From a virus, in the UHGV virus genome UHGV-0041830: a stretch of 15,804 nt of DNA; one strand, given 5' to 3'. Below are positions 1,069 to 15,230 of the stretch, piece by piece. Every line of letters starts with the position of its first letter. The first letter of the stretch is position 1. The notes beneath the pieces were generated by a model, which was not told the DNA's origin, did no database searches, and was given only the letters and a program-made list of their open reading frames with translations. Made by a program: the position numbers and the translations under genes.

Positions 1069-1078
1069 NNNNNNNNNN
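1069..1078. other. Assembly gap (N10); flanks 835-1068 and 1079-1312 are near-identical 234-bp copies with SNPs
   Basis: Run of 10 n. Sequence after the gap restarts at a point 234 bp before the gap (ttgataccgaaaaggcctttgaatatatcgcc...) with scattered substitutions. Confidence 0.95.
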
Positions 1079-3297: not shown

Positions 3298-3307
3298 NNN
3301 NNNNNNN
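3298..3307. other. Assembly gap (N10); flanks 2988-3297 and 3308-3617 are ~310-bp near-identical copies
   Basis: Run of 10 n. Post-gap sequence agatgacggtggaaaaagcccgcccgatcctgg... repeats 2988 onward with roughly 8% substitutions. Confidence 0.95.
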
Positions 3308-11040: not shown

Positions 11041-11050
11041 NNNNNNNNNN
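11041..11050. other. Assembly gap (N10); flanks 10948-11040 and 11051-11143 are 93-bp near-identical copies (H 3' end and M start)
   Basis: Run of 10 n. atgacatggcccgcaagggtgcccgtgatgaaat... appears on both sides with a few substitutions. The pre-gap side already contains the H stop and an M start codon (ATG 11027). Confidence 0.95.
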
Positions 11051-11459: not shown

Positions 11460-12157
11460 TGCAGGATATCCGGCAGGAAACATTGAATGAATGCACCCGT
11501 GCGGAGCAGTCGGCCAGCGTGGTGCTCTGGGAAATCGATCTGACAGAGGTCGGTGGAGAACGTTATTTTTTCTGTAATGAGCAGAACGAAAAAGGTGAGC
11601 CGGTCACCTGGCAGGGGAGGCAGTATCAGGCGTATCCCATTCAGGGGAGCGGTTTTGAACTGAATGGCAAAGGCACCAGTACGCGGCCCACGCTGGCAGT
11701 CTCTAACCTGTACGGCATGGTCACCGGTATGGTGGAAGATATGCAGAGTCTGGTCGGCGGAACGGTGGTCCGGCGTAAGGTTTACGCCCGTTTTCTGGAT
11801 GCGGTGAACTTCGTCAACGGAAACAGAGACGCCGATCCGGAGCAGGAGGTGATCAGCCGCTGGCGCATCGAGCAGTGCAGCGAACTGAGTGCGGTCAGTG
11901 CCTCCTTTGTACTGTCCACACCGACGGAAACGGATGGTGCCGTTTTTCCGGGGCGCATCATGCTGGCTAATACCTGCACCTGGACCTATCGCGGTGATGA
12001 GTGCGGTTATCACGGTCCGGCAGTCGCGGATGAATATGACCAGCCGACGTCCGATATCACGAAGGATAAATGCAGCAAATGCCTGAGCGGCTGTAAGTTT
12101 CGCAATAACGTCGGCAACTTTGGCGGCTTCCTTTCCATTAACAAACTTTCGCAGTAA
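11459..12157 (+). CDS. L: Tail tip protein L (C-terminal cysteine cluster)
   Basis: 232 aa, same length as lambda L. C-terminal cysteine cluster CTWTYRGDECGYHG...CSKCLSGC. Confidence 0.9.
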   Translation: MQDIRQETLNECTRAEQSASVVLWEIDLTEVGGERYFFCNEQNEKGEPVTWQGRQYQAYPIQGSGFELNGKGTSTRPTLAVSNLYGMVTGMVEDMQSLVGGTVVRRKVYARFLDAVNFVNGNRDADPEQEVISRWRIEQCSELSAVSASFVLSTPTETDGAVFPGRIMLANTCTWTYRGDECGYHGPAVADEYDQPTSDITKDKCSKCLSGCKFRNNVGNFGGFLSINKLSQ

Positions 12158-12161
12158 TCCC

Positions 12162-12905
12162 ATGACAGAGACAGAATCAGCGATTCTGGCGCACGCCCGG
12201 CGATGTGCGCCAGCGGAGTCGTGCGGCTTCGTGGTAAGCACGCCGGAGGGGGAAAGATATTTCCCCTGCGTGAATATCTCCGGTGAGCCGGAGGCGTATT
12301 TCCGGATGGCTCCGGAGGACTGGCTGCAGGCAGAGATGCAGGGTGAGATTGTGGCGCTGGTCCACAGTCATCCCGGTGGTCTGCCCTGGCTGAGTGAGGC
12401 CGACCGGCGGCTGCAGGTGCAGAGTGATTTGCCGTGGTGGCTGGTCTGCCGGGGGGCGATTCATAAGTTCCGCTGTGTGCCGCATCTCACCGGGCGGCGC
12501 TTTGAGTACGGGGTGACAGACTGTTACACACTGTTCCGGGATGCTTACCATCTGGCGGGGATTGAGATGCCGGATTTTCATCGCGGGGATGACTGGTGGC
12601 GTCACGGTCAGAATCTCTATCTTGACAATATGGAGGCTACTGGTTTTTACCGTGTCGCACTGACAGAGGCGCAGCCGGGCGATGTGCTGCTGTGCTGTTT
12701 TGGTTCATCGGTGCCGAATCACGCCGCCATTTACTGCGGCGACGGTGAGCTGCTGCACCATATTCCTGAACAACTGAGTAAACGAGAGAGGTATACCGAC
12801 AAATGGCAGCGACGCACACACTCCCTCTGGCGTCACCGGGAATGGCACGCATCTGCCTTTACGGGGATTTGCAACGATTTGGCCGCCGCATCGACCTTCG
12901 TGTGA
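12162..12905 (+). CDS. K: Tail tip assembly protein K, JAB/MPN (JAMM) metalloprotease-like plus NlpC/P60 domains, full-length reading
   Basis: ATG at 12162 is 4 nt after the L stop, open to TGA at 12903-12905. JAMM motif HSHPGGLPWLSEAD (12364-12403) with upstream ESCG (12206-12217). Cys in VTDCYTLF and His residues downstream fit an NlpC/P60 core. The shorter reading from the internal ATG at 12306 is about 199 aa. Confidence 0.82.
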   Translation: MTETESAILAHARRCAPAESCGFVVSTPEGERYFPCVNISGEPEAYFRMAPEDWLQAEMQGEIVALVHSHPGGLPWLSEADRRLQVQSDLPWWLVCRGAIHKFRCVPHLTGRRFEYGVTDCYTLFRDAYHLAGIEMPDFHRGDDWWRHGQNLYLDNMEATGFYRVALTEAQPGDVLLCCFGSSVPNHAAIYCGDGELLHHIPEQLSKRERYTDKWQRRTHSLWRHREWHASAFTGICNDLAAASTFV

Positions 12906-13444
12906 AAACGGGGGCTGAAGCCATCCGGGCACTGGCCACACAGCTCCCGGCGTTTCGTCAGAAACTGAGCGATGGCTGGTATCAGGTACGGATTGCCGGG
13001 CGGGATGCAGGAGAAACCGAATTATCATCCCGTCTTAATGAGCCGCTGGCAAATGGTGCCGTGATCCACATCGTGCCGCGTCTTGCGGGAGCAAAAAGTG
13101 GCGGTGTGTTTCAGGCGGTGCTGGGTGCGGCGTTGATTGCTACGGCAATCTGGATGCCGGGGATCAGTATCGCTTTCAGTGACATTCTCTTTTCAATGGG
13201 TGCGGCGATGACGCTTGGTGGTGTGGCGCAGATGCTGGCACCGAAAGCCAGAACTCCCCGTACACAGACAACGGATAACGGCAAACAGAACACCTATTTC
13301 TCCTCACTGGATAACATGGTTGCCCAGGGCAATGTCCTGCCTGTTCTGTACGGTGAAATGCGCGTGGGGTCACGTGTGGCATCTCAGGAGATCAGCACGG
13401 CAGATGAAGGGGATGGTGGTCAGGTTGTGGTAATTGGGCGGTAA
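12803..13444 (+). CDS. I: Tail tip assembly protein I (variant allele), N-terminal ubiquitin-like domain ending in Gly-Gly
   Basis: 213 aa. N- and C-terminal thirds match lambda gpI. The central segment (DAGETELSSRLNEPLANG...AVLGAALIATAIWMPGISIAFSDILFSMGAAMTLGG) differs from the second copy at 14195-14775. Overlaps K by 103 nt. An alternative start at ATG 12842 is possible. Confidence 0.85.
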   Translation: MAATHTLPLASPGMARICLYGDLQRFGRRIDLRVKTGAEAIRALATQLPAFRQKLSDGWYQVRIAGRDAGETELSSRLNEPLANGAVIHIVPRLAGAKSGGVFQAVLGAALIATAIWMPGISIAFSDILFSMGAAMTLGGVAQMLAPKARTPRTQTTDNGKQNTYFSSLDNMVAQGNVLPVLYGEMRVGSRVASQEISTADEGDGGQVVVIGR

Positions 13445-13517
13445 TATTATTTTACTCATGTTCTAACTAATTTAATATTTATATCGAACACTGATAATTA
13501 TTCTATTGGTTAGCTAT
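13445..13517 (+). promoter_or_regulatory. AT-rich putative promoter/leader of the inserted lipoprotein gene
   Basis: Extremely AT-rich 73 bp. Candidate -35 TTTAAT (13471-13476) and -10 GATAAT (13493-13498) with 16-bp spacer. Weak, unvalidated prediction. Confidence 0.3.
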
Positions 13518-13856
13518 ATGAACAAAACGATTTTATTCTGCACGATTATTGCCTTAACAGGATGTAAATCTTTGGATTACGTAAAATCCGGAAAACCTGT
13601 AATGGAAGGTAATTCATTAAAAAATATTGATGAATTGTCAGGCTGCATATCCAGACAATGGGCTGGTAATGGAACACCTATAACATCCCTTCCTATTGAG
13701 AATGGGGTAAGCCTTTTAGTTCCACAGGCTATGGGGGGATATGATGTTGTGCTTGATATCAAAAAAGCAGGAAATGGCAGTAGTTTTACTCTTTATGAAC
13801 GTGTACCAGCATTAACGCCAAAAATTTTTGCTGATAGTGTTAATGCATGTAAATAA
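13518..13856 (+). CDS. Predicted outer-membrane lipoprotein of unknown function (moron inserted between tail genes I and J)
   Basis: 112 aa. N-terminus MNKTILFCTIIALTG|CKS is a textbook signal peptidase II signal: basic n-region, hydrophobic core, lipobox L-T-G-C, and Lys (not Asp) at +2 after the lipidated Cys. Two further Cys residues. Tandem TAA TAG stops. ~36% GC against GC-rich flanks. Start could alternatively be TTG 13506. Confidence 0.75.
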   Translation: MNKTILFCTIIALTGCKSLDYVKSGKPVMEGNSLKNIDELSGCISRQWAGNGTPITSLPIENGVSLLVPQAMGGYDVVLDIKKAGNGSSFTLYERVPALTPKIFADSVNACK

Positions 13857-13880
13857 TAGTTAATCCTGTCGTAACTCATG

Positions 13881-13908
13881 AGCCGCCTTTTGGGCGGCTT
13901 TGTTGTTT
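13881..13908 (+). terminator. GC hairpin plus T-tract between the moron and J (conserved in the second I-J junction)
   Basis: AGCCGCC (13881-13887), loop TTTTG, GGCGGCT (13893-13899), then TTGTTGTTT. Lies 14 nt upstream of the J ATG. Confidence 0.45.
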
Positions 13909-13922
13909 ATGGAGTGTGAGGA

Positions 13923-14184
13923 ATGGGTAAAGGAAGCAGTAAGGGGCATACCCCGCGCGAAGCGAGGGACAACCTGAAGTCCACGCAGCTGCTGAGTGTG
14001 ATCGATGCCATCAGCGAAGGGCCGGTTGAAGGTCCGGTGGATGGATTAAAAAGCGTGCTGCTGAACAGTACGCCGGTGCTGGACAGTGAGGGGAATACCA
14101 ATATATCCGGTGTCACGGTGGTGTTCCGGGCAGGTGAGCAGGAGCAGACACCGCCGGAGGGATTTGAATCCTCCGGCTCCGAGA
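13923..14184 (+). CDS. J: Central tail fiber / tip attachment protein J, N-terminal 87 codons (copy 1, cut by N10 gap)
   Basis: MGKGSSKGHTPREARDNLKSTQLLSVIDAISEGPVEGPVDGLKSVLLNSTPVLDSEGNTNISGVTVVFRAGEQEQTPPEGFESSGSE matches the lambda J N-terminus almost exactly. GAGGA RBS. Confidence 0.92.
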
Positions 14185-14194
14185 NNNNNNNNNN
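14185..14194. other. Assembly gap (N10) joining a segment ending in J to a segment beginning inside the K/I overlap
   Basis: Run of 10 n. Post-gap sequence accttcgtgtgaaaacgggggctgaagcc... corresponds to 12894 onward, so this is not a simple overlap: the following segment is an alternative copy of the I-J locus. Confidence 0.95.
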
Positions 14195-14775
14195 ACCTTC
14201 GTGTGAAAACGGGGGCTGAAGCCATCCGCGCACTGGCCACACAGCTCCCGGTGTTTCGTCAGAAACTGAGCGACGGCTGGTATCAGGTACGGATTGCCGG
14301 GCGGGACGTCAGCACGTCCGGGTTAACGGCGCAGTTACATGAGACTCTGCCTGATGGCGCTGTGATTCATATTGTTCCCAGAGTCGCCGGGGCCAAGTCA
14401 GGTGGCGTATTCCAGATTGTCCTGGGGGCTGCCGCCATTGCCGGATCATTCTTTACCGCCGGAGCCACCCTTGCAGCATGGGGGGCAGCCATTGGGGCCG
14501 GTGGTATGACCGGCATCCTGTTTTCTCTCGGTGCCAGTATGGTGCTCGGTGGTGTGGCGCAGATGCTGGCACCGAAAGCCAGAACTCCCCGTACACAGAC
14601 AACGGATAACGGCAAACAGAACACCTATTTCTCCTCACTGGATAACATGGTTGCCCAGGGCAATGTTCTGCCGGTTCTGTACGGTGAAATGCGCGTGGGG
14701 TCACGCGTGGTTTCTCAGGAGATCAGCACGGCAGACGAAGGGGATGGTGGTCAGGTTGTGGTGATTGGTCGCTGA
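14195..14775 (+). CDS. I: Tail tip assembly protein I (lambda-like allele), 5'-truncated by gap
   Basis: Codon boundary at 14197, stop TGA 14773-14775. Central segment DVSTSGLTAQLHETLPDGAVIHIVPRVAGAKSGGVFQIVLGAAAIAGSFFTAGATLAAWGAAIGAGGMTGILFSLGASMVLGG matches lambda gpI as I recall it. Confidence 0.88.
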
Positions 14776-14793
14776 TGCAAAATGTTTTATGTG

Positions 14794-14820
14794 AAACCGC
14801 CTCCGGGCGGTTTTATCGTT
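14794..14820 (+). terminator. GC hairpin plus T-tract upstream of J (second copy)
   Basis: AAACCGCC (14794-14801), loop TCCG, GGCGGTTT (14806-14813), perfect 8-bp stem followed by TATCGTTT. Same position relative to the J start as 13881-13908. Confidence 0.45.
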
Positions 14821-14835
14821 TATGGAGCATGAGGA

Positions 14836-15220
14836 ATGGGTAAAGGCAGCAGTAAGGGGCATACCCCGCGCGAAGCGAAGGACAACCTGAAATCATCCCA
14901 GATGCTGAGCGTGATAGACGCCATCAGCGAAGGGCCGGTTGAAGGTCCGGTGGATGGATTAAAAAGCGTGCTGCTGAACAGTACGCCGGTGCTGGACAGT
15001 GAGGGGAATACCAATATATTCGGCGTCACGGTGGTGTTCCGGGCCGGTGAGCAGGAGCAGACTCCGCCGGAGGGATTTGAATCCTCCGGCTCCGAGACGG
15101 TGCTGGGTACGGAAGTGAAATATGACACGCCGATCACCCGGACCATCACGTCGGCAAACATCGACCGTCTGCGCTTTACCTTCGGTGTGCAGGCACTGGT
15201 GGAAACCACCTCAAAGGGGG
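14836..15220 (+). CDS. J: Tail tip attachment protein J, N-terminal part (copy 2, pre-gap)
   Basis: Near-identical to 13923-14184 and to the lambda J N-terminus. Continues ...TVLGTEVKYDTPITRTITSANIDRLRFTFGVQALVETTSKG. Confidence 0.92.
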
Positions 15221-15230
15221 NNNNNNNNNN
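15221..15230. other. Assembly gap (N10); flanks 15128-15220 and 15231-15323 are 93-bp near-identical copies within J
   Basis: Run of 10 n. cgccgatcacccggaccatcacgtcggcaaacat... is present on both sides with substitutions. Confidence 0.95.

What the first reader, a model, noticed from the sequence alone, without database searches (positions are those of the whole stretch)
12803..13444. K-I gene pair carries a ubiquitin-like/JAB/NlpC signature; Gly-Gly conserved in both I alleles while flanks diverge
Both I copies contain (L/V)AGAKSGG immediately before a hydrophobic, glycine-rich segment (SGG codons at 13097-13105 and 14398-14406). Comparative work on prokaryotic ubiquitin-like systems has described lambda I as having an N-terminal beta-grasp (ubiquitin-like) domain and K as a JAB peptidase fused to NlpC/P60, suggesting K processes or conjugates I at a diglycine. 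In this window the diglycine is invariant even though the surrounding I sequence has been swapped between alleles, consistent with selective constraint on a processing site. K and I also overlap by 103 nt in different frames.
Basis: partly seen in the sequence, partly recalled or inferred. Interest (0 to 1): 0.45.

Follow-up and report, generated by a model that had tools for sequence, protein, structure and literature searches.

The report
Lambda-type tail genes K and I

Summary
K (12162-12905) is a JAB metallopeptidase fused to an NlpC/P60 peptidase. I (12803-13444) has an N-terminal ubiquitin-like domain. Both I copies read (L/V)AGAKSGG at the stated codons, and K and I overlap by 103 nt, as in lambda itself.

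- Iyer, Burroughs and Aravind predicted in 2006 that K's JAB domain releases the ubiquitin-like domain of I.
- A 2025 meeting report says the Davidson lab showed gpK cleaves gpI.

The refinement concerns the site. The family-wide conserved element is P92-x3-G96-[A/S]97, found in 60 of 61 diverse representatives. It aligns with the C-terminal Gly-Gly of MoaD, SAMP1 and ubiquitin. The flagged G100-G101 sits four residues downstream in a variable-length spacer. It occurs at that position in only 21 of 60 representatives, and G100 is Ser in common E. coli alleles.

The two "alleles" are contigs joined across 10-N gaps, not tandem genes. I found no sign of conjugation machinery. Verdict: known system, ordinary member, low interest.

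The parts
12162..12905 (+). Gene K (247 aa): tail tip assembly protein, a JAB/MPN+ metallopeptidase fused to an NlpC/P60 (C40) cysteine peptidase
   Evidence: Pfam Prok-JAB residues 4-98 (E 6.8e-14) and NLPC_P60 residues 111-224 (E 5.7e-13). phrog_30 E 4e-163. The ATG lies 5 nt after the L stop.
12216..12227 (+). ESCG: the catalytic Glu19 of the JAMM site
   Evidence: Sequence motif, conserved as E-x-C-G in K of six diverse phages.
12363..12404 (+). HSHPGGLPWLSEAD: the JAMM zinc-binding motif H-x-H-x7-S-x2-D (K residues 68-81)
   Evidence: Regular-expression match and alignment.
12519..12536 (+). DCYTLF: the NlpC/P60 catalytic Cys121
   Evidence: Conserved D-C-[YW] in the alignment of seven K proteins. 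The partner His is in NHAAIY at 12717-12734.
12803..12905 (+). K/I overlap of 103 nt; I is in the -1 frame relative to K
   Evidence: The length is identical in lambda NC_001416.
12803..13444 (+). Gene I, copy 1 (213 aa): tail tip assembly/plug protein
   Evidence: Pfam Lambda_tail_I E 4.4e-24. phmmer E 6e-109 to lambda gpI in PDB 8IYK.
12842..13093 (+). Ubiquitin-like beta-grasp domain of I (residues 14-97)
13076..13093 (+). P92-R-L-A-G96-A97: the family-wide conserved tail of the ubiquitin-like domain. This is the most likely position of the scissile bond (after G96 or A97).
   Evidence: P92 and G96 are invariant in A1 and A3. The motif is present in 60 of 61 representatives. It aligns with the terminal Gly-Gly of MoaD, SAMP1 and ubiquitin.
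13097..13105 (+).
   Evidence: for coordinates. 'xxGG' at this position occurs in 21 of 60 representatives. G100S is found in P0034 and P0103. Model pLDDT is below 50 from residue 98.
13106..13237 (+). Hydrophobic, glycine-rich segment (residues 102-145) containing two predicted helices
   Evidence: Sequence. Corresponds to H1/H2 of lambda gpI, which are predicted to span a membrane (PMC11101478). G108, G133 and G140 are invariant.
13238..13441 (+). C-terminal plug domain (residues 146-213)
   Evidence: Nearly identical to the lambda gpI residues resolved as a trimeric plug in the tail-tip lumen.
13004..13213 (+). Mosaic cassette (codons 68-137) in which the two I copies differ at nearly every codon
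   Evidence: Codon comparison and Nei-Gojobori counts.
14197..14775 (+). Gene I, copy 2: partial, from codon 32 onward after the 10-N gap; lambda-type allele with 10 extra residues in the hydrophobic segment. G-A codons at 14389-14394, SGG at 14398-14406.
   Evidence: Matches the lambda-type sequence (P0115) over the shared part.

Best explanation
This is the standard lambdoid tail-tip module M-L-K-I-J.

I is made as a precursor with four parts:
- an N-terminal MoaD/SAMP-like ubiquitin-like (Ubl) domain (residues 14-97);
- a short Lys/Gly-rich spacer (98-101);
- two hydrophobic helices (102-145);
- a C-terminal plug domain (146-213).

The part after the Ubl domain is built as a trimer into the lumen of the tail tip. 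There it holds the C-terminus of the tape-measure protein and closes the tube.

K is a non-virion assembly enzyme. Its JAB zinc-peptidase domain recognises the Ubl domain and cuts it off once I has docked into the tip complex. The Ubl domain therefore acts as a removable cap and assembly checkpoint, not as a conjugated modifier.

The cut most likely falls at the tail that corresponds to the ubiquitin C-terminus, P92-R-L-A-G96-A97 (after G96 or A97). It probably does not fall after the G100-G101 pair, which belongs to the flexible spacer that stays on the plug fragment.

Shown here: the domain identities, the fold, intact catalytic motifs, the conservation pattern and purifying selection.
Taken from the literature: that cleavage happens and that gpK does it.
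Inferred: that the JAB domain rather than NlpC/P60 does the cutting, and the exact bond.
For: Domains and motifs:
- Pfam assignments for K and I.
- Intact JAMM and NlpC motifs.
- The JAB+NlpC K gene lies next to I in all six diverse phages checked: hosts Mannheimia, Ralstonia, Pseudomonas and Synechococcus, plus a T1-like and an HK97-like E. coli phage.

Fold:
- The domain model has pLDDT 81, and confidence falls below 50 from residue 98.
- The low-confidence full-length model also gave only ubiquitin-like proteins among its top 50 Foldseek hits.

Conservation:
- P92 and G96 are invariant, and G96-[A/S]97 is present in 60 of 61 representatives, whereas G100-G101 is variable.
- Profile alignments place G96 opposite the penultimate residue of MoaD 3rpf (73 of 74), CysO 4n6e (89 of 90), E. 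coli MoaD (80 of 81) and SAMP1 (86 of 87). The ubiquitin alignment stops at profile position 81 = L73, which by extension puts G96 opposite G75.
- Within the swapped cassette, pN is 0.12 in the conserved block against 0.39-0.40 in the flanks, with saturated pS.

Literature:
- The 2006 prediction (PMC1779556).
- Lambda gpI is resolved only from residue 101 or 134-135 onward in virions, and gpK is absent from virions (PMC10721106, PMC11101478, PMC12617516).
- A meeting report states that gpK cleaves the Ubl domain of gpI after gpI joins the tip complex (PMC12908700).
- The N-terminal region of F-pyocin PA0640 is absent from mature particles but present in stalled tips (bioRxiv 10.64898/2026.02.24.707460).
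Against: - No primary paper with the cleavage site was available. The gpK-gpI cleavage rests on a meeting summary.
- The MoaD and SAMP sequence-profile hits are individually non-significant (E 0.3-1.3). Only their consistent register and the independent fold match give them weight.
- G101 alone is fairly well conserved (79%; invariant in the 31 closer relatives), so a cut next to G101 is not excluded.
- The report that lambda gpI is modelled from residue 101 is second-hand. It would also fit an uncleaved but disordered N-terminus.
- No K-I complex could be modelled here, so which K domain cuts was not tested.
Confidence: 0.72

Rival explanations
1. One reading: K cuts I immediately after the G100-G101 diglycine, which is the selectively constrained processing site.
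For: - GG is present in both copies despite 5 of 9 nucleotide differences in the SGG codons.
- G101 is invariant among 31 closer relatives and 79% conserved more widely.
- JAB peptidases typically cut after Gly-Gly (established knowledge of JAMM enzymes).
Against: - G100 is replaced by Ser, Ala or other residues in many homologues, including abundant E. coli alleles.
- The spacer between G96 and the hydrophobic helix varies by several residues in length.
- The position homologous to the ubiquitin, MoaD and SAMP C-terminus is G96-A97.
- Lambda gpI is reported as modelled from residue 101 in virions, so G101 would stay on the plug fragment.
Confidence: 0.15
2. There is no cleavage in this phage. 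The Ubl domain stays attached but flexible, and AGAKSGG is only a hinge between the globular domain and the hydrophobic helices. K acts as a chaperone, or on another substrate.
For: - The cryo-EM papers call the N-terminus only 'unresolved'.
- One mass-spectrometry table lists a single gpI peptide and cannot tell which part of the protein is present.
- The model predicts residues 98-105 to be disordered.
Against: - The meeting report of gpK cleaving gpI.
- Mass spectrometry of F-pyocin shows the N-terminal region lost from mature particles but present in stalled tips.
- All catalytic residues of the JAB domain are retained across distant phages.
- The G96-[A/S]97 tail is strictly conserved, which a mere hinge would not need.
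Confidence: 0.08
3. The NlpC/P60 cysteine-peptidase domain of K, not the JAB domain, removes the Ubl domain. Alternatively the two domains cut at two sites, for example G96-A97 and G100-G101.
For: - Both peptidase domains keep their catalytic residues in all seven K proteins aligned.
- The 2006 paper notes phages whose K has only NlpC/P60.
- There are two glycine-containing candidate sites four residues apart.
Against: - The JAB-Ubl pairing is the recurrent functional unit in prokaryotic systems.
- The meeting report attributes the activity to K's 'deubiquitinating domain'.
Confidence: 0.1
4. True ubiquitin-like conjugation: after release, the Ubl domain of I is ligated through its C-terminal glycine to a phage or host protein.
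For: - The fold belongs to the MoaD/SAMP/Urm1 modifier clade.
- NlpC/P60-clan enzymes include acyltransferases. One K homologue gave a weak LRAT hit (E 0.004, below the curated cut-off).
Against: - No E1- or E2-like gene lies next to K-I here or in the six other phages checked.
- Position 97 is Ala or Ser rather than Gly in 58 of 60 representatives.
- None of the papers read here reports a modified tail protein.
Confidence: 0.03

Closest known systems
Bacteriophage lambda gpK / gpI (TAPK / TAPI of Iyer, Burroughs and Aravind 2006)
   Same: - Same genes in the same order (M-L-K-I-J), with the same 103-nt overlap.
- Copy 1 of I aligns with lambda gpI over its full length (phmmer E 6e-109). Copy 2 is the lambda-type allele.
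- K has the same JAB+NlpC/P60 architecture.
   Different: - Copy 1 carries a different central cassette (codons 68-137) and is 10 residues shorter in the hydrophobic segment.
- K here is read as 247 aa. The lambda reference annotates 199 aa because of a missing base in that record.
F-type pyocin PA0639 / PA0640 (Pseudomonas aeruginosa tailocin)
   Same: These are homologues of the gpK/gpI pair. Only the C-terminal part of the plug protein is seen in mature particles, and the N-terminal region is removed during maturation.
   Different: It is a tailocin rather than a phage, the sequence relation is distant, and the protease responsible is not identified in that preprint.
MoaD/ThiS/SAMP/Urm1 sulfur carriers and modifiers with their JAMM peptidases (such as HvJAMM1, Mec+/CysO, QbsD/QbsE)
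   Same: - Same hydrophobic-Pro-x-x-x-Gly-small tail.
- Partnered with a JAB/JAMM peptidase that exposes or releases the C-terminus.
   Different: - The phage domain is fused in front of a structural protein.
- It ends in Gly-Ala/Ser rather than Gly-Gly.
- It has no E1 partner and no sign of thiocarboxylation or conjugation.
Phage T5 pb3 plug domain
   Same: It performs the same job as the C-terminal part of I: a trimeric plug closing the tail-tip lumen, with hydrophobic segments proposed to enter the outer membrane.
   Different: In T5 the plug is an insertion within the hub protein. It has no Ubl cap and no K-like peptidase.

Membership tests
Lambda_tail_I / TAPI (PF06805) | Match to the Pfam model above its gathering score | tested here: met
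   85.1 bits against a cut-off of 23.8, E 4.4e-24, residues 14-97.
Lambda_tail_I / TAPI (PF06805) | N-terminal ubiquitin-like beta-grasp fold | tested here: met
   [not shown]
Lambda_tail_I / TAPI (PF06805) | Conserved glycine at the C-terminal end of the beta-grasp domain | tested here: met
   G96 is invariant in alignments A1 and A3, and present in the motif in 60 of 61 representatives.
Lambda_tail_I / TAPI (PF06805) | Glycine-rich hydrophobic linker followed by the C-terminal (TAPI-C/plug) domain | tested here: met
   Residues 126-212 align with the lambda gpI plug fragment in 9E7M (E 4e-47). G108, G133 and G140 are invariant.
Lambda_tail_I / TAPI (PF06805) | Gene located between K and J in a siphophage tail-tip module | tested here: met
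   M, L, K, I and J are identified in order. The same order is annotated in E. coli ATCC 11775.
TAPK (lambda gpK: JAB + NlpC/P60) | Prok-JAB and NLPC_P60 domains in one polypeptide | tested here: met
   52.2 bits and 49.2 bits, both above the curated cut-offs.
TAPK (lambda gpK: JAB + NlpC/P60) | Complete JAMM motif E...H-x-H-x7-S-x2-D | tested here: met
   E19 and H68-S-H70-PGGLPWL-S78-EA-D81.
TAPK (lambda gpK: JAB + NlpC/P60) | NlpC/P60 catalytic Cys and His | tested here: met
   C121 (DCYTLF) and H187 (NHAAIY) are conserved in seven aligned K proteins.
TAPK (lambda gpK: JAB + NlpC/P60) | Cleaves the Ubl domain off I and is absent from virions | not testable with these tools
   Literature only.
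Ubiquitin-like conjugation systems (Ubl + E1/E2, such as SAMP, Bil or 6E/CBASS-type) | Beta-grasp modifier | tested here: met
Ubiquitin-like conjugation systems (Ubl + E1/E2, such as SAMP, Bil or 6E/CBASS-type) | Modifier ends in, or is processed to, a free C-terminal Gly-Gly | tested here: inconclusive
   The homologous position is G96-A97, internal to the protein, and position 97 is Ala or Ser in 58 of 60 representatives. A free end would exist only after cleavage.
Ubiquitin-like conjugation systems (Ubl + E1/E2, such as SAMP, Bil or 6E/CBASS-type) | E1-like adenylating enzyme (ThiF/MoeB) and/or E2 encoded nearby | tested here: not met
   The neighbours are M, L, J and a small lipoprotein-like ORF. 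There are no such genes in the six other K-I loci examined.
Ubiquitin-like conjugation systems (Ubl + E1/E2, such as SAMP, Bil or 6E/CBASS-type) | Covalent attachment to target proteins | not testable with these tools
   Needs mass spectrometry.

The most novel reading that the evidence does not exclude
K might be a self-contained, E1/E2-free ubiquitin-like transfer enzyme. The JAB domain would release the Ubl domain of I at G96-A97. The papain-fold NlpC/P60 domain, whose clan includes acyltransferases, would capture it as a thioester and transfer it to a lysine of a tail protein or host protein. A less radical variant is that the NlpC/P60 domain is the still-unknown protease that cuts the tape-measure protein gpH into gpH* and gpHC.
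Probability: 0.05. Interest if true: 0.8.

Novelty: already known. Interest (0 to 1): 0.18.

Why it matters
The K-I pair is one of the earliest recognised prokaryotic pairings of a ubiquitin-like domain with a JAB peptidase. It now appears to be an assembly checkpoint for siphophage tails and F-type tailocins.

This window adds no new biology. It holds a normal member of the family. The one useful point for anyone designing cleavage-site mutants is that comparative data favour G96-A97, the homologue of the ubiquitin C-terminus, over the more eye-catching G100-G101. The full-length K protein (247 aa, including Glu19) should also be used, rather than the 199-aa lambda reference annotation.

Tried and rejected
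1. The search for related loci with the diverse I alignment failed because no stretch was conserved enough. I sampled six phage loci by hand instead.
2. A profile search of the 5.8-billion-protein set returned mostly the same close E. coli relatives, so it added little depth for modelling.
3. The full-length AlphaFold2 model of I was poor (pLDDT 47). Re-running the domain alone gave pLDDT 81.
4. I looked for a natural full-length K-I fusion to use as a stand-in for a complex prediction.
   - The fusions found (P0001, P0005, P0043, P0077, P0274) all lack the N-terminal part of the JAB domain.
   - They arise from 2-nt deletions in the overlap plus a poly-G shift, probably assembly indels. I rejected them as models.
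5. Literature searches for a primary paper giving the gpK-gpI cleavage site found only a meeting report and the F-pyocin preprint.
6. The virion mass-spectrometry table in PMC10721106 lists only one gpI peptide and does not say which, so it cannot decide whether the N-terminus is present.
7. I considered programmed frameshifting across the K/I overlap as the origin of the fusions. I dropped it because the fusion junctions differ between genomes and need 2-nt deletions in the DNA.

Full report
**What the window is.** The 15.8-kb window is a lambdoid phage morphogenesis region running from the head genes through H, M, L, K, I and J. It contains five runs of exactly 10 N (1069, 3298, 11041, 14185, 15221). 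After each run the sequence restarts a little upstream with a variant allele. It is therefore a scaffold of contigs from more than one lambdoid prophage. The 'two I alleles' are one complete gene (12803-13444) and one partial gene that begins at codon 32 right after an N gap (14197-14775). They are not tandem genes. The arrangement around copy 1 (L-K-I-small ORF-J) exists as such in complete genomes, for example E. coli ATCC 11775.

**Checking the observation.** Every stated fact holds.
- I is 213 aa, with AKSGG at residues 97-101.
- The SGG codons are at 13097-13105 and at 14398-14406.
- K ends at 12905, so K and I overlap by 103 nt in different frames. Lambda has the same overlap.
- The segment after GG (residues 102-145) is hydrophobic and glycine-rich.

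The two copies are almost identical in DNA at codons 32-67 and 138-213 (pS 0.07 and 0.15). They differ at nearly every codon from 68 to 137, which is a swapped cassette that includes the GG codons themselves. Within the cassette, codons 85-110 show saturated synonymous change (pS about 1.0) but pN of 0.12. The patches on either side have pN of 0.39-0.40. Purifying selection is therefore real. It protects a 26-residue block, GAVIHIVPR[L/V]AGAKSGGVFQ[A/I]VLGAA, and not the diglycine specifically.

**What the proteins are.**
- K (247 aa from ATG 12162) matches Prok-JAB (residues 4-98) and NlpC/P60 (residues 111-224), both above the curated cut-offs.
- K carries a complete JAMM site (E19; H68-x-H70-x7-S78-x2-D81) and the NlpC Cys121 and His187.
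- I matches Lambda_tail_I over residues 14-97. It aligns end to end with lambda gpI in PDB 8IYK (E 6e-109).
- The same JAB+NlpC K gene sits just upstream of I in all six distant phages I sampled. Their hosts are Mannheimia, Ralstonia, Pseudomonas and Synechococcus, plus a T1-like and an HK97-like E. coli phage.

**The fold.**
- A full-length model was poor (pLDDT 47). Even so, its top 50 Foldseek hits were all ubiquitin-like proteins.
- Modelling residues 13-105 alone gave pLDDT 81 and pTM 0.72. The strands and helices follow a beta-grasp order, and confidence collapses from residue 98 onward.
- The beta-grasp claim is confirmed, and the domain belongs to the MoaD/ThiS/SAMP branch.

**Where the conserved 'C-terminal glycine' really is.**
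- A search of 1.84 billion representatives found 3,003 relatives.
- In 61 full-length representatives at 30-78% identity, the motif hydrophobic-hydrophobic-P92-x-x-x-G96-[A/S]97 is present in 60. Position 97 is Ala or Ser in 58 of those 60.
- The residues that follow form a Lys/Gly-rich spacer of variable length.
- P92 and G96 are invariant in both curated alignments.
- Even among close relatives G100 varies. AKSSG is found in an E. coli cluster of 749 member sequences (P0034) and in P0103, and AKNAG in P0299. G96, A97, K98 and G101 are invariant in that set.
- The Pfam model ends exactly at A97.
- A profile of the domain picked up MoaD and ThiS-family chains in the PDB at non-significant E-values (0.3-1.3). 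The register is consistent: G96 falls opposite residue 73 of a 74-residue MoaD chain (3rpf) and residue 89 of a 90-residue CysO chain (4n6e).
The ubiquitin alignment ends two positions earlier but is in the same register.
- By eye, IHIVPRLAGA lines up with ubiquitin LHLVLRLRGG and with MoaD FFPPVTGG.
- G96-A97 is therefore the counterpart of the ubiquitin-like C-terminus. The flagged G100-G101 lies four residues beyond it, in the spacer.

**What the literature says.**
- Iyer, Burroughs and Aravind (2006, PMC1779556) described exactly this pairing. [quoted passage not shown] They wrote of one glycine, not a diglycine.
- Cryo-EM of lambda shows gpI as a trimeric plug in the tip lumen. It is resolved from residue 134-135 in two studies, or 'from position 101 onward' in the closed state according to PMC11101478, which takes its closed-state gpI from PDB 8IYK/8IYL. 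The N-terminal domain is never seen.
- gpK is not found in virions.
- A February 2026 preprint on F-type pyocin concerns the homologue PA0640. Its N-terminal region is absent from mature particles by mass spectrometry but present in stalled tips. The authors propose a proteolytic checkpoint.
- If residue 101 is indeed modelled in the virion fragment, a cut after G101 is unlikely and a cut at G96-A97 fits. This point is second-hand.

**Mechanism proposed.** I is a precursor. Its MoaD-like cap keeps the hydrophobic plug portion soluble, or blocks premature docking of the tape measure and tube. K's JAB domain binds the cap, threads the PRLAGA tail into the zinc site, and removes the cap once I is seated against J and L. 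The remaining fragment closes the tube and holds the end of gpH.
- Domain identities, fold, motifs and selection are shown here.
- That cleavage occurs, and that gpK does it, comes from the literature.
- The choice of JAB over NlpC/P60, and the exact bond, are inference.
- Rivals considered: a cut after G101, no cut, NlpC/P60 as the protease, and true conjugation. They are set out with their tests in the structured fields.
- Conjugation lacks any E1 or E2 gene nearby, and position 97 is usually Ala or Ser.

**Verdict.** The window holds an ordinary member of the family. The specific emphasis on the diglycine is probably misplaced. Novelty: already known. Interest: low.

Noticed in passing
window 13518-13856 (flanks 13445-13922): A small low-GC ORF (112 aa, GC 0.34-0.40 against about 0.56 around it) lies between I and J in copy 1 only. 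It has a lipoprotein-type signal (MNKTILFCTIIALTGC) and is followed by a terminator-like hairpin at 13880-13900. It has no Pfam match and hits phrog_914 (unknown function, E 7e-33). Matching DNA (95-100% identical) is found in 337 of 5,426 complete E. coli genomes. It looks like a moron gene.
   Followed up: partly
L007 (lambda NC_001416) 14119-14299, compared with window 12141-12330: The 1982 lambda reference (J02459 / NC_001416) lacks one G that is present in this window. Resequenced lambda, DE3 and related phage records match the 181-nt lambda query over 182 nt, which points to the same extra base. In phage 434, K is annotated at 14132-14875. The missing base breaks the K reading frame, so RefSeq annotates K as a 199-aa 'C40 family peptidase' without the first 48 residues of the JAB domain, including the catalytic Glu. 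The full K protein is 247 aa.
   Followed up: yes
window 12780-12805 and about 12445-12455; proteins P0001, P0005, P0043, P0077, P0274: Public protein sets contain K'-I fusion proteins. They are created by 2-nt deletions in the K/I overlap (in GAGAGG or TATACC), together with a shift in the poly-G run inside K. PHROG families phrog_28576 and phrog_35166 appear to be built on such fusions. The likely cause is assembly indels rather than biology, but this was not proven.
   Followed up: partly
window 1069-1078, 3298-3307, 11041-11050, 14185-14194, 15221-15230: There are five gaps of exactly 10 N. After each one the sequence restarts upstream with a slightly different allele. The window is a concatenation of contigs from related prophages, so any 'duplicate genes' in it are assembly products.
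   Followed up: yes
window 12803 / 12842: The start of I is annotated inconsistently in public records: 213-223 aa as in lambda, 200 aa from M14, or 191 aa by PGAP in ATCC 11775. Most distant homologues begin at the M14 position, which is also where the Ubl domain starts. The 191-aa version would remove the first beta-strand.
   Followed up: partly
L006 (phage mEp390) 986-1432; L001 (Mannheimia phage) 1373-1498: Other phages also carry small inserted ORFs next to I. mEp390 has a lipoprotein gene between K and I, and the Mannheimia phage has a 41-aa ORF there. The K-I-J junctions seem to be a recurrent site for moron insertion.
   Followed up: no
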